Counted from the stretch's first letter, positions 12,299-33,632 are shown. The stretch: DNA of 55,860 nt from Egibacteraceae bacterium (GCA_050743205.1 JBOGEA010000001.1:1-55860); one strand, 5' to 3'. The notes: generated by a model not told the origin, from the sequence alone. A program made the numbers and translations.

Positions 12299-13132
12299 AT
12301 GGCAACGGATGTGAAGTACAGTGTGAACCTGATGGCTAGCGTGCTGCGGAACCCCTACCCCGAGGTGCCTTTGCCGGAGGCTCCCCTCGCCCTCGTGCTG
12401 TGCCAGATCCGGTTCCCCGATACTCCTGCGCTCGTGGACCGAGTTGTCCTGGGCCGTATCAAAGAGGGCTTGCATGACTTGTTCCCGGTCATGCGGTCAG
12501 AAGAAAACGCCTCATTCGCTGTGTCGATGGCTCCGGGCAACCCCCCGCAGATCGCGGCGAACCGCGAACCCGTGACCCGGTTCGAGCAGATTGACAAGTC
12601 GTGGTTCGTCACAGTCAACAACCAGTTTCTTGCTTTGAGTACGACTGCGTACACGTCGCGCAAAGACTTCATTGCGCGACTCCGGGATGTGCTTGCCGTT
12701 GTGACGGCACAGGCTGATGTAGGCGTTTGCGACCGGATCGGCGTGCGCTACGTAGACCAGGTCGCGGACGCGGCCGTTCTCAGTGACCTGCCGACCTTCG
12801 TCAACCCGGCGCTCCTCGGGGTTCTTACGCTCGATGCCAGCGACGGCGTCGCTGTCGTCCACGCGCTCACCGAGAGCCTTCTAGACCTGGGTGGGAACAC
12901 GCACCTGCGGTCGCGGTGCGGCGTCGTTCCGCCGGCCACGGCGCTTGATCCCAGCCTTGGGGGCATCGACCAGGCATCCTGGATCCTGGACATCGACGTG
13001 TTCGACTCGACCGCCGTCCCGTTCACTGTCGACCTCGCAGACCGCGCGGAGCAGCTGGCAACGTCGGCCTATCAATTGTTCCGGTGGTCCGTGACCGACA
13101 AATTCATCAGGCACTTCGGGGGAACGTCATGA
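12299..13132 (+). CDS. TIGR04255-like uncharacterised protein (277 aa)
   Basis: The N-terminus YPEVPLPEAPLALVLCQIRFPD matches my memory of the TIGR04255 signature (PL.eav.qirF). This is unverified. Confidence 0.5.
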   Translation: MATDVKYSVNLMASVLRNPYPEVPLPEAPLALVLCQIRFPDTPALVDRVVLGRIKEGLHDLFPVMRSEENASFAVSMAPGNPPQIAANREPVTRFEQIDKSWFVTVNNQFLALSTTAYTSRKDFIARLRDVLAVVTAQADVGVCDRIGVRYVDQVADAAVLSDLPTFVNPALLGVLTLDASDGVAVVHALTESLLDLGGNTHLRSRCGVVPPATALDPSLGGIDQASWILDIDVFDSTAVPFTVDLADRAEQLATSAYQLFRWSVTDKFIRHFGGTS

Positions 13133-13725
13133 TTCAGCTCGCCAACGCTTCAACCGCGGTTTCCCAGAGGCATGAGCGGGATCTTGACTGGTTCGGGCCT
13201 GAGCCCACGTTCAGCGCGCGAACCGCGCGCACTCGCAAGTACCTTGAGTGGGATCATTGCCGTGCTATGACGGTGACGGTCCTAGCCAGGCCGCTCGGCC
13301 GTGACATCCACGTGCGCATTTCGCCAGAACTCCCAGATCTTCCCGACGCTCTGCTCGCTCAGCTCATCGGGGCCATCTCGAGCAGCATCCCGATCAGTCC
13401 GGCAGACCGGCTGCGCGCCATTCATGAGCGATCGAACCTGACCTGGTCACAGCTTGCCCGCCTTTTCGGTGTCAGCCGTCGAGCCGTCCACGCCTGGGTG
13501 GGAGGTAGCCGTATGTCCGCCGCCAACCTCGAACGGCTCGGCCGGGTCGAGCAGTTCGTCAGCGCCTGCTACGAGGCCACTCCGCAGGCCACAAGGGACC
13601 GGCTGTTCTCATCGCCACCTGGTCAGCTGTCGCCGTTCGCGACCCTCCTGGCTGAGATCAGTGAAGCCCGTCCAAGTTCCGAACCGCGCGCTTGGGCAGA
13701 GCGGAATGACGTCGGTGGAGACTGA
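13129..13725 (+). CDS. HTH (XRE-like) domain protein, start overlapping the upstream stop (ATGA)
   Basis: NLTWSQLARLFGVSRRAVHAWVGGSRMSAANLERLGRVEQFV. The ATG at 13129 overlaps the TGA at 13130-13132. Confidence 0.6.
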   Translation: MIQLANASTAVSQRHERDLDWFGPEPTFSARTARTRKYLEWDHCRAMTVTVLARPLGRDIHVRISPELPDLPDALLAQLIGAISSSIPISPADRLRAIHERSNLTWSQLARLFGVSRRAVHAWVGGSRMSAANLERLGRVEQFVSACYEATPQATRDRLFSSPPGQLSPFATLLAEISEARPSSEPRAWAERNDVGGD

Positions 13726-13999: not shown

Positions 14000-14392
14000 T
14001 CAGCATATAGTGCAACGGGAATCGGATCTCGCTACGTAAGGAAAGTTGGCATTCTGCTCTCCACCGTCGAGAAAGAAAGCCCGCCCACCCGTCTCACCGC
14101 AGAGGTTCTCGCTCAAGATCAAGTTAAAGTTGGTGTTGTTGATCGCGGAGCGAGTCGGGAATTGTAAGTTTGCACAACCGGGATCAGGCGCTGTTACGAA
14201 CCCTACCGCCGGTATTCCTTGAAAGTTTGGTTCCGGCCAGATGCAGAATTGATCTGCCCCACATTGTGTCTGAGCGAGTGCCAAACTCTGTGTGGGTCCC
14301 GCTACGCCGGATACACCTATGTACGCGATGACCGATAGCAGCAGGACCGCGACCGTGAGCGCACCCACCGGGAGGCTGTGGACTTTCCTCAT
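14000..14392 (-). CDS. Secreted peptidase-inhibitor I36 (SMPI-like) family protein
   Basis: Signal-peptide-like N-terminus (VGALTVAVLLLSVIAYIG), FCIWPEPNFQG, SAINNTNFN and paired cysteines. G+C is visibly lower than in neighbouring sequence. Confidence 0.55.
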   Translation of the reverse strand: MRKVHSLPVGALTVAVLLLSVIAYIGVSGVAGPTQSLALAQTQCGADQFCIWPEPNFQGIPAVGFVTAPDPGCANLQFPTRSAINNTNFNLILSENLCGETGGRAFFLDGGEQNANFPYVARSDSRCTIC

Positions 14393-14477: not shown

Positions 14478-14891
14478 TTACTCGTCGAGGTGAAGGCAGA
14501 CGCCCATGAGTTTGCCCAGGAGTTTGCCGATGGTTGAGTTGCGCAGCGGTTTGGTGTGGAAGCGGAACGACCAGCCTTTGGCGGGGTCGCGCTCGAGTGT
14601 GATCTCGGCGTGGAAGGCCAGCAGGACCAGCGCCCCGATCGCGAGGGTCGCCGGGTCGGCGCGCTGACCGGCTGGCGGCGCGACGGCGATGGCCTGCTCG
14701 ACCAGTTGTCTGGTGTCGGCGTCGCGGCGGGCGAGGTGCGCAAGCGCTGTGCGGGCCAGCGCCCCTGGGGTCGCGGCCGGGTCGGGCGTGGCGAGGTTGG
14801 CGAGGTCGGGTTGGGAGAGCGCCTCGCGCAGCAGTAGCTGAGTCTGATCGAGCGTGAGCGCGTCGACCGCGTGGCCTTGGCGCTCAAGCAC
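14478..14891 (-). CDS. Hypothetical 137-aa protein immediately downstream of CHAT-STAND copy A
   Basis: GTG start 59 nt after the copy-A stop. The helical N-terminus is AVDALTLDQTQLLLREALSQPDLANLA, there is one hydrophobic segment (LAIGALVLLAF), and the C-terminus is GWSFRFHTKPL. Confidence 0.55.
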   Translation of the reverse strand: MLERQGHAVDALTLDQTQLLLREALSQPDLANLATPDPAATPGALARTALAHLARRDADTRQLVEQAIAVAPPAGQRADPATLAIGALVLLAFHAEITLERDPAKGWSFRFHTKPLRNSTIGKLLGKLMGVCLHLDE

Positions 14892-14949
14892 GAGCTGCAG
14901 CGCCCGCCGCTGCGTGCTGATCGGACAGGTCGGCTATCTGCTCGTCGAG

Positions 14950-17900
14950 CTAGTCCTCCGGTTGACCCAGGCGATCCAGGATGGCGGTGACGATTGCGGT
15001 ATCGGTGGCGTCGAGCCCTTGGGCCAGCGCTGTACCGCGCTCGCCGCCCAGGATCCGACGGAGGGTGGCGGCGAGCGCAGCCCAGTCGTCGCGGTCAGCG
15101 AGATCGGTGAGGTACGGCTCGAGGCTGGCGGTCGCCTGCTGGTCGCCGCTCGCGGCTGCGACCACCGCGTCAACCAGGGGAGTGAGTTCCTCGGGGCCAC
15201 CGGGTGGGGGCTGTTCGAGTTCGGCGCGGCCGGCCAGCACGTCCAGGGTGCGCGCAACGATCGCGGTGTCGATCGGGTCCAGCCCGTCGAGCAGCTCCTC
15301 TCCGCGCTCGCCGCCCAGGATGCGCCGCAGCCGCCCGACCAGAGCCGCCAGTCGTCGTGCTGCGCTTGTGCCGCCAGCGCACGGTCCAACTCAGCGATGC
15401 GGGCGATGGTCGGGGCCCAGCCGTCGAGGTGTCGTCGGATATCGGCGCCATAGCGTGCGAGGCGCAGGACCTCGGCCATGGCCGCGTCGCCGTCTGCGGC
15501 CCGCCTGGGCAGGCGCTCGACGAGTTGCGCGAGTTGGACCCCCTCGACCTGGCTCACCAAGTCGCACAGCTCAGCGAACGAAGCCGGTAGCGGTGGTGCT
15601 GAGTCGAAGCTGGCGAAGGCGAGGGCGAGCTGGTTGAGCGTCAAGGCCAAGCCTCCCCCGCCGGTCTGATACCTGATGACGGAGGCAGCCAGCCGGTGGG
15701 CCAGCTCGACCGAATCGGCGTCAGCCCGGCGGAGGTAAATTGCCAGGTTCTGGTGGCTGACCGCGATGGACTCAGGGTCTGCGGCGGCGTACGTGTAGCG
15801 CAGCGCGTCCTGCGAGAGTCTGATGGCGGCATCGCGGTGGCCGAGGTTTTCCTCCATGTCAGCCAGGGCGCCGACCACCGCACCGAGAAAGGCGACGTCC
15901 TGTTCCTGCTCGAACACGGCCCGACAGGCCAGCAGTAGCTTTTTGGCGTCGTTGATGCGACCGAGGCGCAGGAGCGGGATATAGTCCCTGAATCGTAGGG
16001 TGGCGAGTTCGAGAGGGGTTGCGCTCCGCTGGCGTGCGGACTCGCTCAGCTCGGCGTTGAGTGCCAGCACCTCGTCCCATCGCTTCAGGTCAGCCGTCGC
16101 ACGATGGCCGGCGACCAAGATGGCTTCGCGCACGTTCCACGGATTGACTGCCTCGTTGACTTCGCGCTGGTTGGGCAGGGTGGCCATGGTTTCCCGCAAC
16201 TTATGGACTGCGGAGAGGACCTCTTGGCTGCGGCCCTGCAGGGCGAGGATCTGCAGCCGCTGCCCCTCGGCCATGAGTTGGGTCCATGGTCCCAACTCGG
16301 CGCGCTGTGTGTAGTCCTTCTTCTGCTCGACCATCGCCAGCGCCTCGTCCAACCGGCCTGTGTCTCGCAGGATGTCGACCAGATTTTCCGCAAGGACGGC
16401 TGCTGTGGCAAAGCGTTCACGTGCCACTGCCTTGGCGAGCAGCTCGCGCAGGCGCCTCTCGGCCTCGGCCGGCTGCACGTACCGCAAGGCCCTAGCGAGC
16501 AGGGTGGCGTGTTCGAGTTCGTCCTCGCTGCCTTTGGTGGCCTCGACGACACGGCGCAGCAGCGGCAGCATGGCGCCGACCGTGCCCGCCGAACTGTCGC
16601 GGTGCAGCACCTTCTCAAGGGCAGAGGCCGCTATGTTCCATACACCGAGGCGCAGCAGGTATGGGATGGCTCTGCGACCGCACAACAGGACCAGCCAGCC
16701 CTGCTCCTGGGTCTCCTCAGCCAGCCCCTGGTGAAATCCGGTCATCCAATAGGTGGCAAGCTCGGTGTCGGCGGCGGCTTGGAAGTCTGGCCCGGCTGAT
16801 GCCCGACCGGCCTCGGCCACGGCGGGATGCAGGTGGTACACCTTGCCCTCGCGATCCTGGTCGTCGGCGGTTTCGGCCGCGACCAACCCTTGGCCGACGA
16901 GTGGGGCTAGGGTGGCGTGCAGGTCGGGCAGGTCGCCGGGCTGTTCCAGCCGTCGCCACAAGTCGCCCCAGTTCGCTTCGACGATCCAGTCGTGCCGGTC
17001 GTTCTCTTCCAGCGCGCACAGGAAGTGGAACAGGACCCTCGCTGGCTCGGGCAGCGCGTCGGCCGCCGCCTGGGCCCACCCCGACAGCACCCGCACGAAG
17101 CCGTCGTCGGTGGCCGCTGACTCGCCGTGGTCGAAGAACGCCCGCAGCGGGGCGCCGCTGGCGAGCCAGGCTTGGTCGGCCTCGTCCAAGCGGGCCGCCA
17201 AGGCGGTGTGGTCGGTGGCTTGGCTGTTGGCCAGCTCGATCAGCTTGGGATGGCCCTGGACCACCCCGAGTGTGCGGGACAGCAGCGCCCGCCCGGCGTC
17301 GCTGTCGAACAGGGCGCGCAGGTTGGGCAGCTCTCGGGCGACCAGCATCGCCTCCTCCAGCGACAGCGCGTGGATCGCCTCAACCCTCACACGCGCATCC
17401 AGCGTTGCGGGGCGCCGCCGCGACGTCAGGACCACGCGAGACAGCCCGTCGTGGCCGATCAGCGCGCCAACGACCAGCTCCCAGCGCGGGTCGCGCCAGT
17501 CGCCCTGCTCGGTCAGCAGCGATTCCAGGTTGTCGAGGACGATCAGGACCCGGTTGGTCTCCAGCAGTTGGGTCAGGCGGGGCAGGAATGCTTGCAGCGC
17601 GGCGATGTCGTCCACCGCCTGCACCATTGCCAGGCCGGGGAGCTGGCGCTCCAGGTCCAGTGCCAGGTTGGTCAGTGCGGCGGTGATGTCGTGGCCCTCG
17701 TCGGGCGCCTTGTGCCACACCAGGTGGGTGAAGGTCTGCTCGTGGCCGTAGGCCAGCTCCAACGCGCAGGCCGTCTTGCCCGCCCCGGCCATGCCATGAA
17801 ACAGCACCGCGCTGTGCTCGTTGTCCGGAGCCAGCGCGGCGGTGGCACGGGCCATGGGGCCGACCCGGCCGACGAACCGGACTGGCTGGGGCGGGAAGTC

Positions 17901-19085
17901 CGCCAGCTTGACGTCGGCGGCGTCGAACACCAGCGGTCCCCCGGCCGGCGGCAGCAGCCGCAGCTCGCTGGCGAGCGCGCCGAACAGGGCAGGGGTGGCC
18001 ACCGACAACGGGGACGCCGACGACGCCCCGGAACACAGCCGGGGCAGGGCCGTTCGCAGCGCGCGGGGCAACGGCTGGCCCTTGCCGAGCATCAACTCGT
18101 AGACCTGGGCGCCGAGCCCGATCGCGAACTCGTCGTCTACCGGGTAGCGCATCGCCAGCACGGCGCAGCCCAAGCGGTCGACGAGCGCGGCGGCCAGCGC
18201 GGGCAGCGGCTCCCCCTCGACGGGCGCCGTGTCGTCGCTGCGCACAGGGATGCCGAGCAGGCGCAGATGCTCGGCGGCGGTGGCGGCCGCGGACTCGCAC
18301 GCTGACAGCGTGACCAGCTTGATCTGGCGTCGGGCAGGGTCGAGCAGCTCGACCAGTTCAGTGCTGGAGATCAGGTCGCGACTGCCGTCGGCGGTCTCCA
18401 GCAGCAGCCCGGCGGGCAGCCCGTGGCCGGAGATGTGGACGATGTCCCAGCCCTCGTCCTCCAGCAGCACGTCGTCGAGGCGTTCCCTGGTCACGCCGTA
18501 CTGCAGGACCCGCAGCTCGATCGCTTTGTGGTTGACCTGGGCGATACGGTCCACCAGGCGGGCCAGCTCGTAGCGCTCACGGCGCAGGCTCAGCGCGGCG
18601 GTGTCCACGGGCAGGCTGAACACGGCGAGCATCCGCAGCCGCCCGCCGACCGGCCGCTTCGCCCCGCCGACGGTCCCGCCCATGCCTTGGATGACGAGGC
18701 TGACCTGCCGCAGCGCCAGCGGCCGGCCCTCGACCCAGGCAAGCTCCAACGGCCGGTAGCCCAGCACCGCCGCCTCGGCGGGCAGGCGCACGCGCACCGT
18801 GACCGGCGCTCGCGCCACGATCGCTGGGCCGACCGCGCCGAGCACCTGCTCGCCGATCCAGCGGCCGAGCCATGCCAGGATCTCGGTCTCGCTGTCCCGG
18901 CGGCGGTCCGGCGCGGCGTTCCAGCGCAGGTAGCGGTACAGATCAGCGAACGCCTCATACTCGGCGGCGCTGGTGTCGAGGTGGACGGTATGGTCGGCGA
19001 CGAACGCGCCGCCGGGCTCGGTCAGCCGCCACCGCCACCGCGCCGGCCCCTCGTAGTCACAGACATCGAGATCCACCAGCTCCAC
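14950..19085 (-). CDS. CHAT protease - NB-ARC/STAND P-loop NTPase - TPR protein, copy A (about 1378 aa; one apparent -1 frameshift near 15345-15350)
   Basis: CHAT dyad motifs HISGHG (His about 18437) and LSACES (Cys about 18302). Walker A is GMAGAGKT (17772-17795), Walker B is LIVLDNLE, and a long TPR-like region follows. The GTG start was set by homology with copy B. The C-terminal tail continues in the frame of ORF 14950-15240. Confidence 0.85.
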
Positions 19086-19169
19086 AACCGCCCCCTGCCC
19101 ATCGCCGCCAGCCCCACCCACCGTACTCGAACGATCCACAGATCCACCATGCAGAGGGCGTAGGCTGCG

Positions 19170-19568
19170 TTGGCTGCGATGGGAGGTGACAGGGTGGCGG
19201 CACGCGTGAGGTGGGAGGTCGTCGGAGGGAAAGCGCGCTACAACGGTCGGTGGCTGTCGGAGTGGGTGCCCGACGCGGTCGAGCGGATCGTGGAGGGGTT
19301 CGCGCCGGTCAGGATCGTCCTGTTCGGCTCTGTGGCTCGGGGTGACGACAACGCCGACAGCGACATCGATCTGCTTGTCGTGCTCTCGGAAATCAGGGGC
19401 CGACGCCACGACGCTGCCGTGGACATTCTTCGTGCCCTGCGTGATCTGCCGGCTCCCGTGGACGTCATGGTCACTGACGTGCGGCACCTCGCGGAGGCGG
19501 CGGAGCTGCCTGGCGTGCTTCGGGTGGCGTTGCGGGAGGGCAAGGTGGTCCATGAGCAGGCCGCCTGA
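19170..19568 (+). CDS. Nucleotidyltransferase-domain protein (MNT-type antitoxin)
   Basis: VRIVLFGSVARGDDNADSDIDLLVV is the GS...DxD polymerase-beta-type motif. A shorter GTG start at 19266 is possible. Confidence 0.8.
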   Translation: MAAMGGDRVAARVRWEVVGGKARYNGRWLSEWVPDAVERIVEGFAPVRIVLFGSVARGDDNADSDIDLLVVLSEIRGRRHDAAVDILRALRDLPAPVDVMVTDVRHLAEAAELPGVLRVALREGKVVHEQAA

Positions 19569-20067
19569 GACGCTCGCCGAGCGTGTCGAGCGATGGCTGC
19601 GGCTCGCCCGTGAGGATCTGCTTCTGGCCGAGCACGCGCTCGCGGACCCCGACGTCGTTCGCCGAGGTGCGTGCGTATGGGCACAGCAGGCGGCGGAGAA
19701 GGCATTAAAAGCGCTCATCGTGTCAGAAAACACTGATCCGCCCAAAATTCATAATCTGATGCACCTCGAACGGTTGGTCCCGGCGGCTGTCAGCGAGGGA
19801 TTGGCACCGCTCGATCTCGAGGGGCTCACTCGCTGGGCGATCGAAGGCCGGTATCCGGACGATTTCGAGGAAGCCACGACCACCGATGCCGAGACGGCCG
19901 TGGCCACAGCCGCCGCCGTCCTCCTTCTCGCCGAGACGGCCCTCGACCGGGCGCCTTTGGGAGATCGAGCCCAAGAGCCTCAAGTCGATCCCGAACTCGC
20001 GCTTGCGGAACAACAGCCGGACGAGCCTGACCTCGCCCCGACCGACGAGCATGGAGAGCACCGCTGA
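19552..20067 (+). CDS. HEPN-domain protein (partner of MNT)
   Basis: WLRLAREDLLLAEHAL...AQQAAEKALKALIV...KIHNLMHLERL. The ATG at 19552 lies 15 nt before the MNT stop. Confidence 0.75.
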   Translation: MSRPPETLAERVERWLRLAREDLLLAEHALADPDVVRRGACVWAQQAAEKALKALIVSENTDPPKIHNLMHLERLVPAAVSEGLAPLDLEGLTRWAIEGRYPDDFEEATTTDAETAVATAAAVLLLAETALDRAPLGDRAQEPQVDPELALAEQQPDEPDLAPTDEHGEHR

Positions 20068-23000
20068 TTAGTCGAGATCGCGGGACGCCGACGCCGCCTT
20101 TGCGCGTGCGCGCAGGCCAAGCAGCCCGGCGATCATGATCACCGGCAGCGGGTAGACCAGATCGGTGACGATGTCCAGCTCCTCGGCGACCTGTTGACCC
20201 TGGACCTCGCCGAGATCTCCGCACGGTGGGATGACGACCCACCAGCGGTAAACCACCCATGCTGCGGCGCGCGGGTGAAGGTCCGCCCGCGTTCTTCGGA
20301 CAGGATCCGGCGGAGGGTGGCGGCGAGCGGCGGCCCAGTCTTCTTGGGCGGCGAGGTCGGCGAGGACGACCGGCTGTGGATCGGCGGCGGCATGCTGGTC
20401 GCCGCGTGCGGCTGCGACCACCGCGTCGACCGGGGGCGTGAACTCTTCGGGCACGCCCGATGGGAGCTGTTCGAGTTCGGCGCGGCCGGCCAGCACGTCC
20501 AGGGTGCGCTGCACGACCGCGGTGTCGATTGGGTCCAGCCCCTCGAGGAGGTCCTGCCCCGCGAGGATGTCCTGGCCGCGCTCGCTGCTCAGGATGCGCC
20601 GCAGCCGCTCGACCAGGACCGCACAGTCGTCGTGCTGCGCTGCTGCGCCCTTGTGCGGATGTCGTCAGTGGCGTTGGCGTGCGAGGCGTAGCACTTCGGC
20701 GAGCGCCGCGTCGCCGTCGGGGGCCCGCCTGGGCAGGCGCTCGAAGAGCTGGGCGAGCTGCACGCCCTCCACCCGACCCACGAGGCCACACAGCACGGCG
20801 AACGAGGCCGGGAGCGGAGGGGTTGTAATGAAGCTGGCTAGGTCGCGGGCGAGCCGGTCGAGCGTCAAGGCCAAGAGCCCCGCGCCGGTCTGATATTGGA
20901 TGATGGCAGAGGCCAGCCGGTGGGCCAGCGCGACCGCCGGATCGGCGTCAGCCCCGCGCAGATAGCTTGCCAGGTTCTGGTGGATGCCCGCAATGGGCTC
21001 AGGGTCTGTGGCGGCGTACGCGTAGCGCAGCGCGTCCTGCTGAAGTCTGACGGCGGCATCGCGGTGGCCGAGTCTGTCCTCAACGTCGGCCAGGGCGCCG
21101 ACCACCTGGCCGTGCGAGCCGATGGCCTTCTCCTGCTCGAACACGGCTCGGCAATCCAGCAGCAGCTTTTTAGCGTCGTTGATGCGACCAAGGCGCAGCA
21201 GCGGACCATAGTCATTGAACTCTATGTCGGCGAGTTCGAGGGGGGGTGCGCTGCGCCGGCGTGTGGACTTGATCAGCGCGGCGTTGAGGGCCAGCGCCTC
21301 TTCCCATCGTTCCTGGCCGGCAGCTGCAGAGCGGCCGACGCTCAGGATGGCCTCACGTACGTTCCACGGATTGACTGGATCGTTCGCTTCGCGCTGCTGG
21401 GGCAGAGCAGCCATGGTTTCCCAGAGTTTCTGGACTGAGGAGAGGACCTCTTCGCTGCGACCCTGCCGGACTAAGATCTGTAGCTGCCGGGCCTCGTCAG
21501 CTAGCTGGGTCCACGGTCCCAAGCCGGCGCGCCGGGTGTAGCCGCTCTTCTGCTCGACCATCGCCAGCGCCTCGTCCAACCGGCCTGTGTCTCGCAGCAG
21601 GTTGATCAGATTCCCCGCAAGGATCGTTGCTGTGGCAAAACGGTCGCGTGCGACTGCCTCGGCGAGCAGTTCACGGAGGCGCGTCTCGGCCTCGGCCGGC
21701 TGCACGAGCGACAGCGCTCGGGCAAGCAAGGCGGCGTAGTCGAGTTCGTCCTCGGTGCCTGTGGTGGCTTCGACGACGCGGCGCAGGAGCGGCAGCACGG
21801 CGGCGACCGTGCCCGGCGAATGGTCGCGATTCAGCACGGTCTCGAGCACCCAGGCCGCAGTGTCCCATTCGCCCAGGCGGAGCAGGTAGGAGGCGACGCT
21901 GCGGCCGGACTGCCGCACCATCCAGCCCTGCGCATGCGTCTCCTTGGCCAGCCTCTGACCGAAACCAGACTTCCAAAAGGCGGCCAGCCTGGTGTCGACT
22001 GCGGCCTGGAAGTCCGGGTCGGCTGCGGCCTGCCCGGCCTCGGCCACACCCGGATGCAGGTGGTAGATGTCTTGTCGGCGGTCCTGGTCGTCGCCGGGCT
22101 CGACCACGACCAGCCCCTGACCGACCAGCGAGACGAGGGTGGCCTGCAAGTCGGGCGGGTCACCGGGCCGTTCCAGCCGCTCCCACAGGTCGGCCCAGTT
22201 CGCCTCAACGATCCAGCCGCGCCGGTCGTGCTCCTCCAGGGCGCACAGGAAGTGGAACAGGATCCGCGCTGGCTCGGGCAGCGCGCCGGTCGCCGCGCGG
22301 GTCCACCCCGACAGCACCCGCACGAAGTCGTCGTCGGTAGCCGCCGATTCGCCGTGGTCGAAGAACGTCTGCAGCCGGGTGCTGCCAGCGAGCCAGGCCT
22401 GGTCGGCTTCGTCCAAGCGGGCCGCCAGGGCGGTGTGGTCGGTGGCTTGGCCGTCGGCCAGCTCGATGAGCTTGGGATGACCCTGGACCACCGCGAGCGT
22501 GCGGGACAGCAGCGCCCTCCCGGTGTCGCTGTCGAACAGGGCGCGCAGGTTGGGCAGCTCGCGGGCGACCAGCATCGCCTCCTCCAGCGACAGCGCATGG
22601 ATCGCCTCGACCCGCGCTCGGGGATCCAGCATTGCGGGCCGCCGCCGCGACGTCAGGACCACCCGAGACAGCCGTCGTGGCTGACCAGCGCGTTGACGAC
22701 CAGCTCCCAGCGTGGGTCGCGCCAGTCGCCCTGCTCGGTCAGCAGCGACTCCAGGTTGTCCAACACGATCAGGACCCGGTTGGTCTCCAGCAGCTGGGTC
22801 AGCCTGGGCAGGAACGCTTGCAGCGCGGCGATGTCGTCCACCGCCTGCACCATTGCCAGGCCGGGGAGCTGGCGCTCCAGGTCCAGTGCCAGGTTGGTCA
22901 GGGCGGCGGTGATGTCGTGGCCCTCGTCGGGCGCCTTGTGCCACACCAGGTGGGTGAAGGTCTGCTCGTGGCCGTAGGCCAGCTCCAACGCGCAGGCCGT

Positions 23001-24312
23001 CTTGCCCGCCCCGGCCATGGCCATGGAACAGCACCGCGCTGTGCTCGTTGTCCGGGGCGAGTGCGGCGGTGGCCCGGGCCATCGGGCCGACCCGGCCCAC
23101 GAACCGGACCGGCTGGGGCGGGAAGTCCGCCAGCTTGACGTTGGCGACGTCGAACACCAGCGGCCCCCCGGCCGGCGGCAGCAGCCGCAGCTGGTCGGCC
23201 AACGGGCCGAACAGGGCCGGGGTGGCCACCGACAGCGGCGACGTCGACGACGCTCCGGTGCACAGCCGGGGCAGTGCCGTTCGCAGCGCGCGGGGCAAGG
23301 GGTGGCCCTTGCCGAGCATCAGCTCGTAGACCTGGGCGCCGAGGGTGATCGCGAACTCATCGTCGACCGGGTAGCGCATCGCCAGCACGGCGCAGCCCAA
23401 CCGGTCGACGAGCGCAGCGGCCAGCGCGGGCAGCGGCTCCCCTCGACGGGGCGCCGTGTCGTCGCTGCGCACAGGGATGCCGAGCAGGCGCAGATGCTCG
23501 GCGGCGGTGGCAGCCGCAGACTCGCACGCTGACAGCGTGACCAGCTTGATCTGGGCTCGGGCAGGGTCGAGCAGGTCGACCAGCTCAGTGCTGGAGATCA
23601 GGTCGCGGCTGCCGTCAGCGGTCTCCAGCAGCAGCCCGGCGGGCAGCCCGTGGCCGGAGATGTGCACGACGTCCCAGCCGTCGTCCTCCAACAGCACGTC
23701 GTCGAGCCGTTCCCTGGTCACGCCGTACTGCAGGACCCGCAGCTCGATCGTTTTGTGGTTGACCTGAGCGATACGGTCCACCAGGCGGGCCAGCTCGTAG
23801 CGCTCACGGCGCAGGCTCAGCGCGGCGGCGTCCACGGGCAGGCTGAACACGGCCAGCATCCGCAGCCGCTCGCCGACCGGCCGCTTCCCGCCACCCCCAG
23901 CGCCGCCCGCACCTTGGATGACGAGGCTGACCTGCTGCAAGGCCAGCGGCCGGCCGTCCACCCAGGCAAGCTCCAGCGGCCGGCAGCCGAGCGCCGCGGC
24001 CTCGGCGGGCAGGCGCACCCGCACCGTGACCGGCGCTCGCGCCACGATCGCCGGGCCGACCTTGCTGAGCACCTCCTCGCCGATCCAGCGGCCGAGCCAC
24101 GCCAGGATCTCGGTCTCGCTGTCCCGCCGGCGGTCCGGCGCGGCATTCCAGCGCAGATAGCGGTACAGATCAGCGAACGCCTCATACTCGGCGGTGCGCT
24201 CGTCGAGGCAGACGGTGTGGTCGGCGACGAACGCGCCGCCGGGCTCGGTCAGCCGCCACCGCCACCGCGTCTGGCCCGTGTAGTCAAGGACGTCGAGGTC
24301 CACCAGCTCCAC
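20068..24312 (-). pseudogene. CHAT - NB-ARC - TPR paralogue, copy B (decaying: +1/-1 indel pair, in-frame stop, degraded tail)
   Basis: It aligns with copy A from 50 nt upstream of the GTG (24312). There is an extra base near 23020 and a missing base near 22672. The P-loop region is readable only in ORF 22653-23024. A TGA occurs at 20665-20667, and homology continues to about 20270. Confidence 0.8.
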
Positions 24313-24378
24313 AACCGCCCCTGCCCGTCGCAGCCAGTGTCACCCACCGTACTGCCTTGGTTTGGCAGGGGAGGGGGC

Positions 24379-24933
24379 TCAGGCGAGCAGGGTGGAGATC
24401 GGCAGAGCGAAGCCGGGCAGCAGTGGGGAGGTCAACGTTTCGCCCTCGCCCACGATGATGGGCTCGGGGTAGCGCCAGCCGGTGAGGCGATGGACGAGCA
24501 CGGCGCGCCGCTTGAGGTCGGTGAACCAGTACTCGGGCACGCCGAAGGCCGCGTAGGCGTCGCGCTTCGGGCCGAGGTCGAACCATCGGTTCGACGGCGA
24601 CGACACCTCGATGACGAGGTCCGGCGGCTCATGCACCTTCTTGCCCTCGAACCACTCGAGATGCTCGGCGAGGACCAACAGCAGGTCGGGCTGGTAGACC
24701 CGCTGCTCGGAGGTGACGACGTCGACCGGCCCGACGAGCACCTCGCCGCCGTGCTCATCAGTCCAGGCCCTTAGTGGGTAGTGGAATTGCCCAATCGCGC
24801 GCTGGTGCCCCACTGCTGGCGAGGGGCTCACGACGAGCACCCCGTCGTGCAGCTCACGGCGGTCGAGTTCGGGAAACTGCTCGTCCAAGTCGCGCCAGGT
24901 GAGGTCCCTCGTCTTGACATCGACCGTCCCCAT
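24379..24933 (-). CDS. Uma2-family (DUF820) endonuclease
   Basis: ELHDGVLVVSPSP..H, YQPDLLLV, PDLVIEVSSPSN, KRDAYAAFGVPEYWF form the PD-(D/E)xK pattern typical of Uma2. Confidence 0.8.
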   Translation of the reverse strand: MGTVDVKTRDLTWRDLDEQFPELDRRELHDGVLVVSPSPAVGHQRAIGQFHYPLRAWTDEHGGEVLVGPVDVVTSEQRVYQPDLLLVLAEHLEWFEGKKVHEPPDLVIEVSSPSNRWFDLGPKRDAYAAFGVPEYWFTDLKRRAVLVHRLTGWRYPEPIIVGEGETLTSPLLPGFALPISTLLA

Positions 24934-25039
24934 AGGGTGCCACCTCCATCAGCCATCGCGGGACTTTACAAGGCCAGCCTACGCCGATGCCAGCTGGAGC
25001 GGCGCAGGCGTCGGCGGTGGTGGGGGCGCTGCTATCGCG

Positions 25040-25192
25040 GTGGCCGCCGACGACACGACCGCGTCGGGCTTTCCCGCGCGCCCTGTGTACGGGCCCGCGG
25101 ATGGCGCAAAGCTGGGGGAGTTGCCGTTCACGCGGGGGATTCACCCGACGATGTAGAGGGGGCGGCTGTGGACGATGCGCCAGTACGCGGGG
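25040..25192 (+). pseudogene. Diverged duplicate of the acyl-CoA mutase 5' end with an in-frame TAG (25154-25156)
   Basis: [50 protein letters not shown] compares with the intact N-terminus at 26730. Confidence 0.75.
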
Positions 25193-25417
25193 ACGGGTCG
25201 GGCACTCGTCGCGCGGGGGGTCAGCATCTGGCACAGCTCGCGTTCAACGGGAGTGGTGAGGCCGGCGGGGGTCCTCAGCGGGAGCACGAGGCCACCATGT
25301 GTCTTGGCCAGGTGTGGCGCGGGGCGAGCGCACAAGCCGCGCTCGGTGCCGGCGGTCAGCAGCCGTTCCAGGGTGCCAGGTGGCGCTGCTGTCCTCAGCC
25401 CGGCTCCCGTAGCTGCC

Positions 25418-26687: not shown

Positions 26688-26729
26688 GTCGGGCAGCGTA
26701 GGCCTGGCTTGCGTGGCTACTATCGCGGG

Positions 26730-28289
26730 ATGGCCGCCGACGACACGACCGCGTCTGGCATCCCCGCGCGCCCTGTGTATGGGCCGGTGGAGGGCGGAAA
26801 GCCGGGGGAGTTCCCGTTCACGCGGGGCATCCACCCGACGATGTATGGGGGGCGGCTGTGGACGATGCGCCAGTACGCGGGGTACGCCTCAGCGAGTGAG
26901 TCCAACGCCCGCTACCGGTACCTGCTGGAGCAGGGGCAGACGGGGCTGTCGGTGGCGTTCGACCTGCCGACGCAGATGGGGTATGACTCCGACGCCGCCA
27001 TCGCGGCCGGCGAGGTGGGCAAGGCCGGGGTGGCGATCGACTCGCTGGAGGATATGCGCCGGCTGTTCGACGGGATCCCGCTGGATCAGGTGTCGACGTC
27101 GATGACGATCAACGCGCCGGCGTCGATCCTGCTGCTGCTCTACCAGCTGGTCGGCGAGGAGCAGGGCGTCGAGCCGGCCAGGCTGCGCGGCACGATCCAG
27201 AACGACGTGCTCAAGGAGTACATCGCGCGGGGCACCTACATCTTCCCGCCCGAGCCGTCGCTGCGGATCGTCACCGACGTCTTCGCCTACTGCGCGCAAC
27301 GGCTGCCCGGGTTCAACGTGATCTCGATCTCGGGCTACCACATGGGCGAGGCCGGGGCCACGGCCGTGCAGGAGGTCGCGTTCACGCTGGCCAACGCCAT
27401 CGCCTACGTCCAGGCGGCGGTCGACGCGGGCCTGGACGTCGACGCGTTCGGGCCGCGGCTGTCGTTCTTCTTCGTGGCCCGCTCGACCCTGCTCGAGGAG
27501 GTCGCGAAGTTCCGCGCCGCCCGGCGGATGTGGGCGCGGATCATGCGTGACCGGTTCGGTGCGCAAGACCCGAAGTCGCAGATGCTCCGCTTCCACACGC
27601 AGACCGCGGGGGTGCAGCTGACGGCCCAGCAGGCCGAGGTGAACATGGCCAGGGTGACGATCCAGGCGCTGGCCGCCACGCTGGGGGGGACGCAGTCGCT
27701 GCACGCGAACGCGTTCGACGAGGCGCTGGCGCTGCCCAGCGAGAAGGCGGCGCGGCTGGCGCTGCGGACCCAGCAGGTGATCGCCCACGAGACGGACGTT
27801 CCGCTGACCGCCGACCCGCTGGGCGGCAGCTGGTTCGTCGAGTCCCTGACCGATGAGATCGAGCGCCGCGCCACGGAATACATCGAGAAGATCGACGCGA
27901 TGGGCGGCGCGGTCCAGGCGATCGGGCAGGGCTACCAGAAGGGTGAGATCGAGCGCAGCGCCTACGAGCTGACCCAGGCGGTGGAGGCGGGGGAGCAGGT
28001 CGTCGTCGGCGTCAACCGGTACACGATCGACGAGGACGTCGAGCCCGAGCTGCTGCGCGTCGAGGACGCCGTCCGAGACGCGCAGGTCACGCGCCTGGAG
28101 CGCATCCGGGCCGAGCGCGACACCGGCGCGGTTCAGGCAGCCCTCGCCGAGGTCTCCGAAGTCGCCCGCGGCACCGGCAACCTGCTGCCTCCGATGAAGC
28201 AGGCGCTGCGCCGGATGGCGACGGTCGGTGAGGTGTGCGACACGCTGCGCGGCGTCTTCGGCCGGTACCGCCCAGCAGACACCGCATGA
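26730..28289 (+). CDS. Methylmalonyl-CoA mutase-family large (substrate-binding) subunit, no B12-binding domain
   Basis: [61 protein letters not shown] is the canonical acyl-CoA mutase barrel. The product is 519 aa and ends before a cobalamin domain. Confidence 0.9.
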
Positions 28290-28292
28290 GCC

Positions 28293-29546
28293 CTAAGGAA
28301 AGGCCCGCTCCATCGGGGGCTGGGGGCTGGCGGGGTCGGGCGTGGAGCGGGAGAACATCCAGCGCAGCTCGACGATGCCGGTGAAGTCGCGCCGTGCGGT
28401 GATGGTGGCGGCGACGGTGAACGGCGCCCGATGCTCGGGATGCACGAGGAGCGTCCACTCGGCGCGGCCCGTGGCCCCGTCGATGGCCTCAAGGCGCCTC
28501 CGGAACTCGCGCCGGGCTCCGTTGGAGATGAACGCGGCCAGGGGGCGGCACTCGAGCAGGTCCTCGGAGTAGCCGAGCAGCTCGGCGGCCTGGCGGTTCG
28601 CGCGAGTGATGAGGCCGACTGGATCGGTGACGAGGTAGGGGAGGGGAGCGAGCTGGTACAGGTCGCGGTAGCGCTCGCGATCGACCTTCAGCCCGTCCCG
28701 CTCGTCGAGGAGCTGCGCGGTCTGCAGCCGGCACTCCTCCAGCAGCGCCTGCTGCTCCTCGAGCGTGGCGGTCAGCTCGGCGATCGCGGAGGAGTCCGTA
28801 TCCTGCATCTTCGGCAGGGTCCGCGCGGCCTCCGGCGGGATCGGCGCCTGGAGACCGCCGAACGACGGCTCGCTGGCCGAGCGCTCGGCCAGGTACGCGG
28901 CCGCCCCGGCGCGGCTGGCGACGTCGAGCGTCGCCAGAATGTTGGATACATACTTCTTGACCGTCCGCTCCGACAGGCTCACGCGGGTGGCGATCTGCCG
29001 GTTCGTGTGACCCCGGCTGATCAGTTGGAGAATCCGCAGCTCGGCCGGCTTCAGCCGCTGCAGCCGCGCGTCCTTCTGGGAGATCTGCTGGCCCAGCCTG
29101 GTGAGCAGCCCGGCGGCGGCGTCGGGGTCGAACAGCGATTCGCCGCCGCCGACCTGGCGGAGCGCGGCGACGAGATGCGACGCGGGGGTGCTCTTGAGCA
29201 GGTAACCCGCCGCTCCCGCGAGGATCGCGTCGAACCGAGCCCGATCGTCGTCGAGCGCGCTGAACAGGATGACACCGAGGCCCGAGCGCTCCCGCCGCAG
29301 GGCCCGGCAGGTCTCGGCGCCGGGATGGTCGGGGAGCTGCGCGTCGAGCAGGATGACGTCGGACTCATGCTCGCGGACCAGCGTGAGAGCCTCGCGGGCT
29401 GTGGAGCCCTCGCCCACCAGCGCCATGCCGGGTTGCGAGCCGAGCAGGGCGGCGACGCCATGACGCAGCATCGGCTGGGAGTCCACAACCAAGACGCGGA
29501 ACGTGCGTACCGCGAGGGTATTCCCTCCAGCTCCAGATGACGCCAT
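28293..29546 (-). CDS. Response regulator with REC - LuxR/FixJ HTH - coiled coil - PAS architecture
   Basis: VLVVDSQPMLRHG...ILLDAQLPD (REC), LKPAELRILQLISRGHTNRQIATRVSLSERTVKKYVSNIL (HTH), and C-terminal YLVTDPVGLITRANRQAAELLGY (PAS). Confidence 0.8.
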   Translation of the reverse strand: MASSGAGGNTLAVRTFRVLVVDSQPMLRHGVAALLGSQPGMALVGEGSTAREALTLVREHESDVILLDAQLPDHPGAETCRALRRERSGLGVILFSALDDDRARFDAILAGAAGYLLKSTPASHLVAALRQVGGGESLFDPDAAAGLLTRLGQQISQKDARLQRLKPAELRILQLISRGHTNRQIATRVSLSERTVKKYVSNILATLDVASRAGAAAYLAERSASEPSFGGLQAPIPPEAARTLPKMQDTDSSAIAELTATLEEQQALLEECRLQTAQLLDERDGLKVDRERYRDLYQLAPLPYLVTDPVGLITRANRQAAELLGYSEDLLECRPLAAFISNGARREFRRRLEAIDGATGRAEWTLLVHPEHRAPFTVAATITARRDFTGIVELRWMFSRSTPDPASPQPPMERAFP

Positions 29547-29693
29547 GCGGTTCAGTATAGGTCCATACGGCTTGTAGTGGCCGAATGGTCATGAGGCAAG
29601 GCGGCCATCACCCCTTGCGTTTTCTGCAACGTCCGGTATTACATCTGGGAAGGCTCTCCGATCTCCGGAAGGGAGGCCAGCCCGCGTCCGCGT

Positions 29694-29933
29694 TCACACG
29701 GCGCGCGGGCGCTGGTCACTTGGCACGCCCTCGGCCCCACCGGGTGGAGATTGCGACCGTCGCGCTCTGCGACGGCACTCGCGGCACGTGATCTCCGCCC
29801 GGTCGGGGTAGACCTGCACGTCCAGCCGGAACCCGCAGGCACCGCAGTAGCGGGGCGGGTCCAGCGGCAGCCGCCCCGCGCAGCCGTCGTGGAGCGCGGC
29901 CCGCAGCGACCGCCCGCATCCCTCGCAGAACAT
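29694..29933 (-). CDS. Small zinc-ribbon protein (79 aa)
   Basis: MFCEGCG...YCGACGFRLDVQVYPDRAEITCRECRRR carries three CxxC pairs. The Met at 29933 was chosen inside the longer ORF. Confidence 0.5.
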   Translation of the reverse strand: MFCEGCGRSLRAALHDGCAGRLPLDPPRYCGACGFRLDVQVYPDRAEITCRECRRRARRSQSPPGGAEGVPSDQRPRAV

Positions 29934-30024
29934 CGACACCGCTTGGAGTGTAAGCCGCCCGCCCGCCCGGCAATGATCCGCCGGGAGCGCCAATGTGGGC
30001 CACTCCCGGCAGAGCACTTGTTGC

Positions 30025-30510: not shown

Positions 30511-30557
30511 CGCAGCGATAGGGCGCGGCCCGAATTTGACGTCTCCGGCCCCTCGTG

Positions 30558-33622: not shown

Positions 33623-33632
33623 AGGCATCGCT

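What the first reader, a model, noticed from the sequence alone, without database searches (positions are those of the whole stretch)
14478..24312. Tandem CHAT-protease / NB-ARC STAND / TPR giant genes with a nested MNT-HEPN pair: candidate NTP-dependent conflict (defence) locus
Seen: two paralogous minus-strand genes of about 4.1 kb (19085->14950 and 24312->about 20270). Each encodes an N-terminal caspase-like CHAT domain (HISGHG and LSACES dyad), a STAND P-loop (GMAGAGKT, LIVLDNLE) and more than 600 aa of TPR-like repeats. Their homology starts about 50 nt upstream of the GTG, including a TACGGT -10-like box, so each copy carries its own promoter. The CHAT and NTPase parts are nearly identical between copies, while the TPR (sensor) part is much more diverged by eye. 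An intact divergent MNT-HEPN pair (19170-20067) sits between them. A small 137-aa protein with one hydrophobic helix follows copy A by 59 nt, and a Uma2 nuclease precedes copy B. Established: CHAT-STAND-repeat proteins were predicted computationally (Aravind-group conflict-system surveys) as effector-sensor suicide/defence devices of multicellular bacteria, and MNT-HEPN is a type II/VII TA module. Inference: this is a rapidly diversifying immune-type locus whose exact gene combination (CHAT-STAND + small membrane partner + MNT-HEPN + Uma2) has, to my knowledge, not been tested experimentally.
Basis: partly seen in the sequence, partly recalled or inferred. Interest (0 to 1): 0.75.

Follow-up and report, generated by a model that had tools for sequence, protein, structure and literature searches.

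The report
Damaged tandem CHAT-protease NLR-like genes
Two neighbouring copies of a giant bacterial "caspase-like protease + molecular switch + sensor" gene sit in a variable part of an Egibacteraceae chromosome; both copies and their one real partner gene carry frame-breaking errors, and the toxin-antitoxin and nuclease genes next to them are unrelated neighbours.

Summary
The two paralogous minus-strand genes are real: 87% nt identity over 3.7 kb, with CHAT, a STAND P-loop NTPase and helical repeats. MNT, HEPN and Uma2 are confirmed by Pfam.

The genes are not intact as assembled:
- Copy B has a +1 and a -1 indel that put the Walker A to Walker B core out of frame. It also has a stop before a decayed tail.
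- Copy A has a 1-nt deletion that throws its conserved C-terminal repeat tail out of frame.
- The 137-aa gene is a 5'-disrupted member of a roughly 157-aa family.

All other genes checked in the window give end-to-end Pfam matches. dN/dS (0.12-0.46) and equal substitution counts on both copies show the damage is recent or an assembly artefact.

The family is very large and crosses phyla. It is the known "all-in-one" CHAT-NLR architecture and matches no PADLOC Avs model.

In 78 reference loci the only conserved neighbour is the small protein. It lies immediately downstream, mostly of tail-bearing copies, and is fused in frame in two database proteins. Its predicted fold is confident and has no PDB or viral match. 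MNT-HEPN and Uma2 never co-occur with the family.

Three Egibacteraceae relatives lack the locus at the syntenic site, so it is accessory. There is no evidence of positive selection. An NLR/Avs-like, protease-mediated conflict function is inferred, not shown.

The parts
14950..19085 (-). Copy A: CHAT - STAND NTPase - helical-repeat sensor - repeat tail. The first 1245 codons (19085-15349) are in frame. The tail (15347-14953) is reached only by correcting a 1-nt deletion at about 15348. The stop is TAG at 14952-14950. The assembled ORF instead runs to 14934 (1383 aa).
18024..18794 (-). CHAT (caspase-like protease) domain of copy A, residues 98-354, with the HISGHG (H217, H221) and LSAC263ES motifs.
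   Evidence: Pfam PF12770, 59.1 bits against a cut-off of 24; invariant columns
17385..17879 (-). STAND P-loop NTPase core of copy A, residues ~403-567. Walker A is GMAGAGKT (K437) and Walker B is LIVLDNLE.
   Evidence: AAA_16 and NB-ARC hits; invariant G431, G434, G436, K437, T438, D518, N519, E521
15441..16718 (-). Helical-repeat (TPR-like) presumed sensor region of copy A, residues ~790-1215. This is the part most diverged from copy B.
   Evidence: Weak TPR_12 (E=0.02); family profile matches designed PPR solenoids; homologues carry PF13424; about 80% nt identity to B
14953..15347 (-). C-terminal tail of copy A: two repeats of DWaaLaxxLRRILgGERxxxLxxGLDxxDTAIVxxxLDxL. It is out of frame with the body because of the 1-nt deletion at about 15348.
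   Evidence: Three-frame translation; in-frame tails in P0004, P0005, P0008, P0011 and others; 72 of 120 homologues have it
14478..14949 (-). Small-partner gene (family normally ~157 aa). The annotated ORF is 14891-14478 (137 aa, GTG). The conserved N-terminal segment LDEQIADLSDQHA is at 14949-14905 in another frame, directly after A's TAG. A +1 lies in GCGGCGGGCG (14910-14901), and there is no start codon for the full-length form.
19086..19127 (-). 5' leader shared by A and B, with a TACGGT (-10-like TAnnnT) box at 19120-19125.
   Evidence: the consensus sigma-70 scan finds nothing here
19194..19568 (+). MNT nucleotidyltransferase (124 aa; the ORF could start at TTG 19170). The GSVARG and DSD motifs are present.
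   Evidence: PF01909 40.2 bits, PF18765 37.8 bits; PADLOC PDC-S09; motifs; below the MntA equivalog cut-off
19552..20067 (+). HEPN protein (171 aa). It overlaps MNT by 17 nt and has no Rx4-6H motif.
   Evidence: PF05168 70.1 bits; gene call; regex
20200..20664 (-). Decayed tail remnant of copy B, downstream of its stop. It is 81% identical to A's tail with 17 gap openings and net multi-nt deletions. No small-partner copy follows it.
20665..24312 (-). Copy B, assembled ORF of 1215 aa. The CHAT and repeat regions are in frame. The Walker A to Walker B segment (23019-22674) is out of frame because of a +1 at 23020 and a -1 at 22673. The stop at 20665 lies where natural short-form homologues end.
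24313..24353 (-). Copy B 5' leader, with TACGGT at 24346-24351.
24379..24933 (-). Uma2-family putative endonuclease (184 aa), 66 nt upstream of copy B. It is a neighbour, not a conserved partner.
   Evidence: PF05685 107.8 bits; PADLOC PDC-S03; only 33-35% identical to the Uma2 genes of the relatives; not co-located elsewhere

Best explanation
WHAT IT IS. The locus is a lineage-specific tandem duplicate of a single-protein, NLR-like ('all-in-one') conflict gene. It lies in an accessory stretch of an uncultured Egibacteraceae (Nitriliruptoria, Actinomycetota) chromosome. Each copy encodes an N-terminal CHAT caspase-like protease, an NB-ARC/AP-ATPase-type STAND NTPase and a TPR-like helical sensor. 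The ancestral form also had a C-terminal two-repeat tail.

THE ONLY REAL PARTNER. A ~157-aa soluble protein of unknown fold is encoded immediately downstream of tail-bearing family members.

HOW IT MOST LIKELY WORKS (inferred by analogy with Avs proteins, NLRs and the apoptosome):
1. The helical sensor binds a trigger.
2. The NTPase drives oligomerisation.
3. The CHAT domains are brought together and activated.
4. Proteolysis of targets, possibly including the small partner, arrests or kills the cell.

STATE OF THIS WINDOW. The module is damaged, recently on the evolutionary scale.
- Copy A keeps an intact CHAT-NTPase-sensor body, but its tail is frameshifted.
- The partner gene has lost its 5' end.
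- Copy B has its nucleotide-binding core out of frame and a truncated tail.

MNT-HEPN and Uma2 are independent small modules that happen to sit in the same variable region.
For: SHOWN
- Domains and invariant catalytic and Walker residues.
- A large family: 1343 proteins with E<=1e-5 and 243 hits among species-representative genomes, from Actinomycetota to Proteobacteria, Chloroflexota, Acidobacteriota and Methanothrix.
- Recurrent tandem arrays, in 8 of 78 loci.
- The only conserved neighbour cluster is the small protein, same strand and just downstream. Every informative small-protein locus is preceded by a tail-bearing CHAT-STAND gene.
- Association with the tail: 9 of 11 copies with the partner have a tail, against 26 of 61 without, Fisher p=0.02.
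- In-frame tail+partner fusions in P0072 and P0353.
- The frame lesions, while all other genes checked in the window give end-to-end Pfam matches.
- dN/dS of 0.12-0.46 and 65 against 63 lineage-specific substitutions.
- Absence at the syntenic site in three relatives.
- Egibacteraceae assignment from a mutase 86-87% identical to Egibacteraceae MAG proteins.

INFERRED: the activation mechanism and a defence role. The literature describes CHAT as a frequent N-terminal domain of bacterial NLRs (10.1101/2020.01.06.895854) and caspase-like protease-STAND fusions among defence-associated STAND clades (PMC13581612).
Against: - No PADLOC Avs or other defence model matches. The only hit is SAVED_CHAT at E=1e-4.
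- No experimental test of any family member was found in the paper searches.
- Enrichment of the family next to known defence genes was not tested.
- The frameshifts cannot be verified. The only other record (GCA_975253665.1) is 100% identical over 24 kb and is probably the same data.
- AlphaFold2 on a natural tail+partner fusion gave no confident packing (pTM 0.43), so a tail-partner contact is unsupported structurally.
Confidence: 0.6

Rival explanations
1. The locus is fully functional. The 1-nt indels in A, B and the partner gene are assembly or polishing errors, for example from mis-resolved reads between 87-96% identical paralogues. The organism would then carry two intact CHAT-STAND paralogues with different sensors plus one partner.
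For: - In the corrected frame, the first ~108 of the 115 codons between B's two indels are identical in protein to A; all amino-acid differences lie in the last few codons.
- Substitution counts are symmetric, 65 against 63, and dN/dS is well below 1.
- All indels lie in short G/C runs, and B's two indels bracket the block with the highest A/B identity (95.7%).
- The second public record is the same sequence.
Against: - All other genes checked in the same window show no frame breaks.
- B's tail has multi-nucleotide deletions and an in-frame stop, not just homopolymer slips.
- The partner gene lacks the ~50-110 nt spacer seen in relatives and has no start codon. Its lesion lies outside the duplicated DNA.
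- Decayed or chimeric relatives are common in databases.
Confidence: 0.25
2. One reading: CHAT-STAND, small partner, MNT-HEPN and Uma2 act together as one multi-gene defence device.
For: - The genes are physically adjacent in an accessory region.
- MNT and Uma2 match PADLOC 'candidate' families PDC-S09 and PDC-S03.
- MNT-HEPN lies exactly between the two copies, with its start about 85-110 nt from A's start.
Against: - In 78 loci, MNT and Uma2 homologues each appear in one locus only, and HEPN in none.
- Unbiased neighbour clustering recovers only the small partner.
- The nearest relatives L081-L084 lack these genes.
- Tandem copies elsewhere directly abut, so MNT-HEPN looks like an insertion where B's partner gene would have been.
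Confidence: 0.05
3. The family is not an immune device. It would be a regulatory or developmental STAND switch (as AfsR, MalT and GutR are), with the CHAT protease processing an endogenous regulator, possibly the winged-helix-like small partner.
For: - No defence HMM matches.
- Bacterial NLR-type proteins with non-immune roles exist (10.64898/2026.09.02.748808, listed).
- The weak, non-significant fold hits of the partner are mostly winged-helix proteins.
- dN/dS is below 1 throughout.
Against: - The distribution is patchy and crosses phyla, and tandem amplification and decay are frequent.
- The locus is absent from close relatives at the same site.
- Mobile-element genes flank several homologues.
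- Together this is the pattern of accessory conflict genes, not of core regulators.
Confidence: 0.1

Closest known systems
'All-in-one' bacterial NLR-like proteins with an N-terminal CHAT domain (Koonin & Aravind 2002; Leipe et al. 2004, from memory; Dyrka et al. 2020, 10.1101/2020.01.06.895854)
   Same: The same domain order: CHAT effector, NB-ARC-type NOD, TPR-type repeats. They are predicted cell-death or immunity devices and were described only computationally.
   Different: - The host here is an Egibacteraceae MAG, not a classic filamentous or multicellular lineage. The family also occurs in Proteobacteria, Acidobacteriota and Methanothrix.
- No amyloid signalling motif was looked for.
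- A repeat tail and a dedicated ~157-aa partner are present in a subset.
Antiviral STAND (Avs) proteins, including protease-bearing ones (Avs2-trypsin, 10.64898/2026.08.25.746987), and bacterial Apaf-1-like caspase-STAND-WD40 proteins (PMC13581612)
   Same: The same tripartite logic of effector, STAND NTPase and repeat sensor. In these systems ligand-induced oligomerisation activates the N-terminal effector.
   Different: - No PADLOC Avs model matches.
- The effector is CHAT rather than trypsin or a nuclease.
- The sensor is TPR-like rather than WD40.
- The trigger is unknown and no family member has been tested.
Craspase (type III-E Cas7-11 with the Csx29 TPR-CHAT protease and its substrate Csx30) and SAVED-CHAT cascades
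   Same: A CHAT protease combined with TPRs, which cleaves a small protein encoded nearby. This is the precedent for treating the ~157-aa partner as a substrate.
   Different: - There is no CRISPR effector and no SAVED domain. The only hit is SAVED_CHAT at E=1e-4 over 64 profile positions.
- Activation would be through a STAND NTPase.
- The domain order is reversed: the repeats are C-terminal.
- The partner is unrelated to Csx30.
MNT-HEPN toxin-antitoxin pairs (type II, and type VII HepT/MntA)
   Same: The gene pair 19194-20067 has both Pfam domains and a 17-nt overlap, with MNT first.
   Different: - It scores below the MntA equivalog cut-off (35 against 60 bits).
- HEPN belongs to PF05168, not the HepT/DUF86 type, and lacks Rx4-6H.
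- It is not linked to the CHAT-STAND family elsewhere.

Membership tests
CHAT caspase-like protease (PF12770) | Profile match above Pfam's gathering score | tested here: met
   A residues 1-383 score 59.1 bits against 24. B scores 52.3 bits. Full-length A gave no CHAT line, and I did not establish why; the N-terminal region scanned alone gives the hit.
CHAT caspase-like protease (PF12770) | Conserved His-Cys catalytic dyad (xHG ... AC motifs of the caspase fold) | tested here: met
   H217, S219, G220, H221, G222 and C263 are invariant in 28 homologues and present in both A and B. By the caspase SHG motif (own knowledge), H221 rather than H217 is the likelier catalytic His.
CHAT caspase-like protease (PF12770) | Proteolytic activity and substrate | not testable with these tools
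   Needs biochemistry.
STAND NTPase (NB-ARC / AP-ATPase type) | Walker A GxxGxGK[ST] and Walker B hhhhD in frame with the rest of the protein | tested here: met
   Met in copy A: GMAGAGKT and LIVLDNLE, with invariant columns. Not met in copy B as assembled, where the segment is out of frame between the indels at 23020 and 22673.
STAND NTPase (NB-ARC / AP-ATPase type) | NB-ARC or another STAND profile above the curated cut-off | tested here: inconclusive
   NB-ARC scores 24.3 against 23.5 on the isolated region but 21.6 on the full length. AAA_16 scores 27.5 against 32.6. nSTAND3/5/6 and NACHT are weak.
STAND NTPase (NB-ARC / AP-ATPase type) | Conserved motif downstream of the P-loop domain (GxP-type), followed by a repeat array | tested here: met
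   Q610-G611-H612-P613 is invariant. More than 600 aa of helical region follow. Reading this as the STAND GxP motif rests on my own knowledge.
TPR repeats | TPR profile matches above cut-off | tested here: inconclusive
   The best hit in A is TPR_12 at E=0.02, 15.5 bits against 30.1. Homologues carry PF13424. The family profile matches designed PPR solenoids at 5e-14. It is best called a TPR-like alpha-solenoid.
Avs / AVAST and other catalogued anti-phage systems (PADLOC-DB v2) | Match to a system model | tested here: not met
   Only SAVED_CHAT at E=1.2e-4, with no passing stretch. NCBIfam has no model for the family or its partner.
Avs / AVAST and other catalogued anti-phage systems (PADLOC-DB v2) | Protection against phage or trigger-dependent toxicity | not testable with these tools
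   Needs experiments.
MNT-HEPN toxin-antitoxin module | Adjacent or overlapping MNT (PF01909) and HEPN genes | tested here: met
   PF01909 scores 40.2 bits and PF05168 scores 70.1 bits. The genes overlap by 17 nt.
MNT-HEPN toxin-antitoxin module | HEPN Rx4-6H RNase motif; MntA/HepT (type VII) equivalog scores | tested here: not met
   There is no R.{4,6}H in the 171-aa protein. MntA_antitoxin scores 35 against 60 bits, and there is no HepT hit.
Uma2 putative endonuclease (PF05685) | Profile match above cut-off | tested here: met
   107.8 bits against 27, covering profile positions 10-171 of 172.
Protease-activated pore formers (bacterial gasdermin type) as identity of the small partner | Sequence or fold similarity to gasdermin or another known executioner | tested here: not met
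   No Pfam, PADLOC or NCBIfam hit. The AF2 model (pLDDT 84.7, pTM 0.82) has no PDB or BFVD match with E<0.8.

The most novel reading that the evidence does not exclude
The ~157-aa protein is the dedicated executioner or substrate of a two-gene 'bacterial apoptosome'. This protein has a confident predicted fold with no PDB or viral structural relative, belongs to a family of 364 clusters at 50% identity, and has no annotation. In this reading it is held by the C-terminal repeat tail of the CHAT-NLR. On trigger-induced oligomerisation it is cut in its conserved, low-confidence R-x-D-P loop. That cut releases the hydrophobic helix / beta-hairpin module as a toxin or signal. This would be a new protease-substrate pair for NLR-like immunity.
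Probability: 0.15. Interest if true: 0.7.

Novelty: new variant of a known kind. Interest (0 to 1): 0.4.

Why it matters
CHAT-NB-ARC-TPR proteins are among the most widespread NLR-like architectures in bacteria, yet I found no experimentally tested member.

This work separates the family's real genetic unit from incidental neighbours. The unit is the giant gene, plus, in a subset, a repeat tail and a dedicated ~157-aa partner of unknown fold. That gives a clean two-gene construct to test.

It also shows that this particular locus is a poor template. Intact homologues (L082, L012, L014, L091) should be used instead.

The recurrent tandem amplification, tail loss, frameshifts and deletion chimeras document the fast birth-and-death turnover expected of costly immune genes.

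Tried and rejected
- **B as a selected NTPase-less paralogue.** I considered whether B's compensating +1/-1 pair marks a selected NTPase-less 'sensor/decoy' paralogue, as in plant NLR pairs. Open off-frame runs of 115 codons or more are common in this 70% GC gene (several per frame). The pair therefore needs no selection to explain it. The idea is unsupported but not excluded.
- **Positive selection on the sensor.** No domain or 60-codon window has dN/dS above 0.7.
- **Tail-partner docking.** AlphaFold2 on the natural P0072 fusion gave pLDDT 64 and pTM 0.43. The tail was poorly modelled, so the result is inconclusive.
- **Fold identification of the partner.** Neither PDB nor BFVD gave a significant match.
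- **PDB sequence and profile searches for the giant protein.** Only repeat-driven PPR hits came back.
- **An intact B allele in JGI metagenomes.** The pattern scan found no match.
- **Wide small-partner scan of metagenomes.** The narrower alignment returned only 4 loci.
- **Supplementary tables of PMC13581612.** They are not held, so I could not check whether this clade is among its 198 defence-associated STAND clades.
- **First tail/partner association script.** It was flawed because the query included the tail. I replaced it with an in-frame extension measure.
- **Consensus promoter and terminator scan.** It was uninformative in this GC-rich DNA.
- **Context of distant small-partner relatives.** The contigs were too short to show neighbours.

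Full report
**1. What is in the sequence**

The window is about 70% G+C. Over window 10043-34312 it is 100% identical to contig CDHSPH010000208.1 of the NCBI assembly GCA_975253665.1.

Its methylmalonyl-CoA mutase is 86-87% identical to proteins of Egibacteraceae MAGs and 77% identical to that of Egibacter rhizosphaerae. The source is therefore an uncultured Egibacteraceae (Nitriliruptoria, Actinomycetota).

- A 19127-15453 aligns with B 24353-20677 at 87.1% over 3695 nt.
- A 15366-15049 aligns with B 20641-20301 at 81%.
- Homology begins 41-42 nt upstream of each GTG and includes a TACGGT box.

**2. Domains**

- CHAT is clear: 59.1 bits on A's N-terminal 383 residues and 52.3 bits on B.
- The NTPase is STAND-like but only marginally NB-ARC by Pfam: 24.3 against a cut-off of 23.5 on the isolated region, and 21.6 on the full length. 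AAA_16 is below its cut-off.
- TPR profiles stay below their cut-offs in A. Homologues carry PF13424, and the family profile matches designed PPR solenoids.
- In an alignment of 28 homologues the invariant residues include H217, H221, C263, G431, G434, G436, K437, T438, D518, N519, E521 and the QGHP motif at 610-613.
- MNT (PF01909), HEPN (PF05168) and Uma2 (PF05685) are confirmed.

**3. The genes are not intact as assembled**

Copy B:
- It has an extra C at 23020 (CATGGcCATGG) and lacks a G at 22673 (GGG to GG). The 115 codons between them, which include Walker A and Walker B, are read out of frame.
- When the frame is corrected, the first ~108 of those codons are identical in protein to A; all amino-acid differences lie in the last few codons.
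- B's ORF stops at 20665 (…RLARQRH*). The DNA beyond is a decayed remnant of a C-terminal tail, 81% identical with 17 gap openings and net deletions.

Copy A:
- It has a 1-nt deletion at about 15348.
- The assembled ORF (1383 aa) ends in 138 out-of-frame codons.
- The corrected frame gives a 132-aa tail of two repeats (DWaaLaxxLRRILgGERxxxLxxGLDxxDTAIVxxxLDxL) that ends at TAG 14952-14950.
- The tail is in frame in homologues such as P0004 and P0005, and 72 of 120 listed homologues have it.

The 137-aa ORF:
- It belongs to a family whose members are about 155-160 aa.
- Here the conserved N-terminal segment (LDEQIADLSDQHA…) lies in A's tail frame directly after A's TAG.
- It is separated from the rest by a +1 in GCGGCGGGCG (14901-14910).
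- No start codon exists for the full-length form.

By contrast, all other genes checked in the window give end-to-end Pfam matches. Examples are the mutase at profile positions 1-512 of 512, PanC, HPPK, two ABC transporters, a permease and a 1140-aa STAND.

**4. Age of the damage**

- Frame-corrected dN/dS between A and B is 0.41 (N-terminus), 0.32 (CHAT), 0.12 (NTPase), 0.35 (linker) and 0.44-0.46 (repeats), with 0.39 overall.
- Polarised with eight outgroups, 65 amino-acid changes fall on A and 63 on B.
- Both copies were therefore under purifying selection for nearly all of their divergence.
- The lesions are either recent or artefacts. I cannot tell which, because the second public record is the same sequence and a metagenome scan found no other allele.
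- B's stop lies exactly where natural short-form homologues end (P0003, P0006). About half of reference copies lack a tail. Tail loss therefore need not inactivate a copy.
- The clearly inactivating lesion is B's out-of-frame P-loop. A's CHAT-NTPase-sensor body (1245 codons) is intact.
- dS is two- to three-fold higher in the 3' half (0.33-0.43) than in the 5' half (0.14-0.21). The 'more diverged sensor' therefore reflects gene conversion or recombination at least as much as protein-level diversification. No window exceeds dN/dS 0.7.

**5. The family and its real partner**

- The family has 1343 members at E<=1e-5 among the scored candidates. Full-length identities are 47-64%, and members are named only 'CHAT domain-containing' or 'TPR repeat' protein.
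- 243 hits occur among species-representative genomes. They span Actinomycetota, Proteobacteria, Chloroflexota, Acidobacteriota, Gemmatimonadota-like MAGs and Methanothrix.
- Tandem arrays recur in 8 of 78 loci. Geodermatophilus has up to about seven copies, some truncated.
- Unbiased clustering of all ORFs within 5 kb of the gene in 78 loci finds one conserved neighbour only: the small protein, on the same strand immediately downstream.
- MNT and Uma2 homologues each appear in a single locus, and HEPN in none.
- The nearest relatives lack them too. L082 has a NERD gene upstream and the small partner 79 nt downstream.
- Starting from the small protein, every locus with enough upstream sequence shows a tail-bearing CHAT-STAND gene ending 50-110 nt before it.
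- 9 of 11 copies with the partner have a tail of 80 codons or more, against 26 of 61 without (Fisher p=0.02, not corrected for phylogeny).
- Two database proteins, P0072 (1593 aa) and P0353, fuse tail and partner in frame.
- The partner family comprises 364 clusters at 50% identity and is almost always a stand-alone protein of 150-170 aa.
- It has no Pfam, PADLOC or NCBIfam match.
- AlphaFold2 gives a confident globular alpha+beta model (pLDDT 84.7, pTM 0.82). The hydrophobic stretch forms a short helix followed by a beta-hairpin. Foldseek finds nothing significant in PDB or BFVD.
- A model of the natural tail+partner fusion was not confident (pTM 0.43).

**6. Genomic context**

- The mutase (26748-28291) and a response-regulator/kinase pair (32865-34841) are syntenic with three Egibacteraceae relatives. 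Those relatives carry PPDK/MarR/Sdh genes or an Lhr helicase upstream of the mutase, and no CHAT-STAND gene.
- The window's Uma2 is only 33-35% identical to the Uma2 genes found a few kb away in two of those relatives.
- A 171-nt copy of the mutase 5' end at 25028-25201 marks a rearrangement at the right edge of the variable region.
- In arrays elsewhere the copies abut or are separated by the small gene (L004). MNT-HEPN thus occupies the place where B's partner gene would be, and no remnant of that gene is left.

**7. Mechanism**

Shown: the architecture, the conserved catalytic and nucleotide-binding residues, the dedicated partner, the accessory status and the damage.

Inferred from established knowledge of STAND/NLR proteins, Avs systems and caspase activation by induced proximity:
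1. The sensor binds a trigger.
2. NTP-dependent oligomerisation follows.
3. The CHAT domains are activated.
4. Proteolysis causes arrest or death.

By analogy with Csx29 and Csx30, the small partner is a candidate substrate. Its conserved R-x-D-P loop has low model confidence and precedes the hydrophobic module. This is a hypothesis only.

**8. Comparison with what is known**

- The architecture is the 'all-in-one' CHAT-NLR noted in the literature (10.1101/2020.01.06.895854). Caspase-like protease-STAND fusions are mentioned among defence-associated STAND clades (PMC13581612).
- No PADLOC Avs model matches.
- The paper searches found no experimental study of this family.
- The MNT-HEPN pair is a generic PF01909/PF05168 pair. 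It scores below the type VII MntA cut-off and lacks the Rx4-6H motif.

**9. Verdict**

- The locus is a damaged tandem pair from a widespread, untested family of a known kind.
- The new element is the tail-plus-partner variant.
- I rate interest as moderate (0.4). The family deserves testing, but with intact homologues rather than this locus.

Noticed in passing
window 25028-25201 and 26715-26886: An 89%-identical direct repeat of about 171 nt. The left copy duplicates the 5' end of the methylmalonyl-CoA mutase gene. It marks the right edge of the region that is not syntenic with Egibacteraceae relatives.
   Followed up: partly
window 6614-10036 (+): A second, unrelated STAND NTPase of 1140 aa: AAA_16 at 84 bits, TPR_12, and a partial match to NCBIfam TOMM_kin_cyc. 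It has no recognisable effector domain and lies about 4.5 kb from the small-partner gene at the locus's low-coordinate end.
   Followed up: no
window 14000-14392 (-): A 130-aa protein just downstream of the small-partner gene. It has a signal-peptide-like N-terminus and a match to peptidase inhibitor family I36 just above the cut-off (22.8 against 21.1 bits). No homologue was found next to CHAT-STAND genes elsewhere.
   Followed up: partly
window 12299-13132 (+) and 13084-13725 (+): A TIGR04255-family protein ('sporadically distributed', 131 bits) followed by an ORF with an HTH_23 motif. Both lie in the lower-GC stretch next to the locus.
   Followed up: no
window 19552-20067 (+): The HEPN protein has no Rx4-6H motif, and its MNT partner scores well below the MntA (type VII) equivalog cut-off. 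The pair may not be a canonical RNase toxin-antitoxin module.
   Followed up: partly
L047, L059, L063 (Geodermatophilus obscurus), L048 (G. siccatus), L038, L004, L020, L067: Tandem arrays of two to about seven CHAT-STAND paralogues, including truncated copies. One head-to-head pair occurs in Actinoallomurus (L067).
   Followed up: partly
L013, L054 (Methanothrix / Methanotrichaceae MAGs): Full-length homologues (45-47% identity over about 1200 aa) occur in archaeal MAG contigs, which implies inter-domain transfer if the binning is right.
   Followed up: no
database proteins P0326, P0466, P0360: These predicted 'proteins' join pieces of a CHAT-STAND gene (N-terminus or repeat region) to the C-terminal part of the small partner, or run into out-of-frame sequence. 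They look like deletion or frameshift remnants, so decay of this module is common.
   Followed up: no
window 28293-32800 and 47000-50000: Lower-GC stretches (0.60-0.66) with few Pfam-recognisable genes. The first lies between the mutase and the response-regulator/kinase pair, a gap that holds only one gene (TENA-like) in the relative L085.
   Followed up: no
window 20068-20691 (+): An ORF annotated in the NCBI record (124 aa) lies antisense to copy B's decayed tail. Its codon-position GC pattern is that expected of a shadow of the minus-strand coding frame, so it is probably not a gene.
   Followed up: partly
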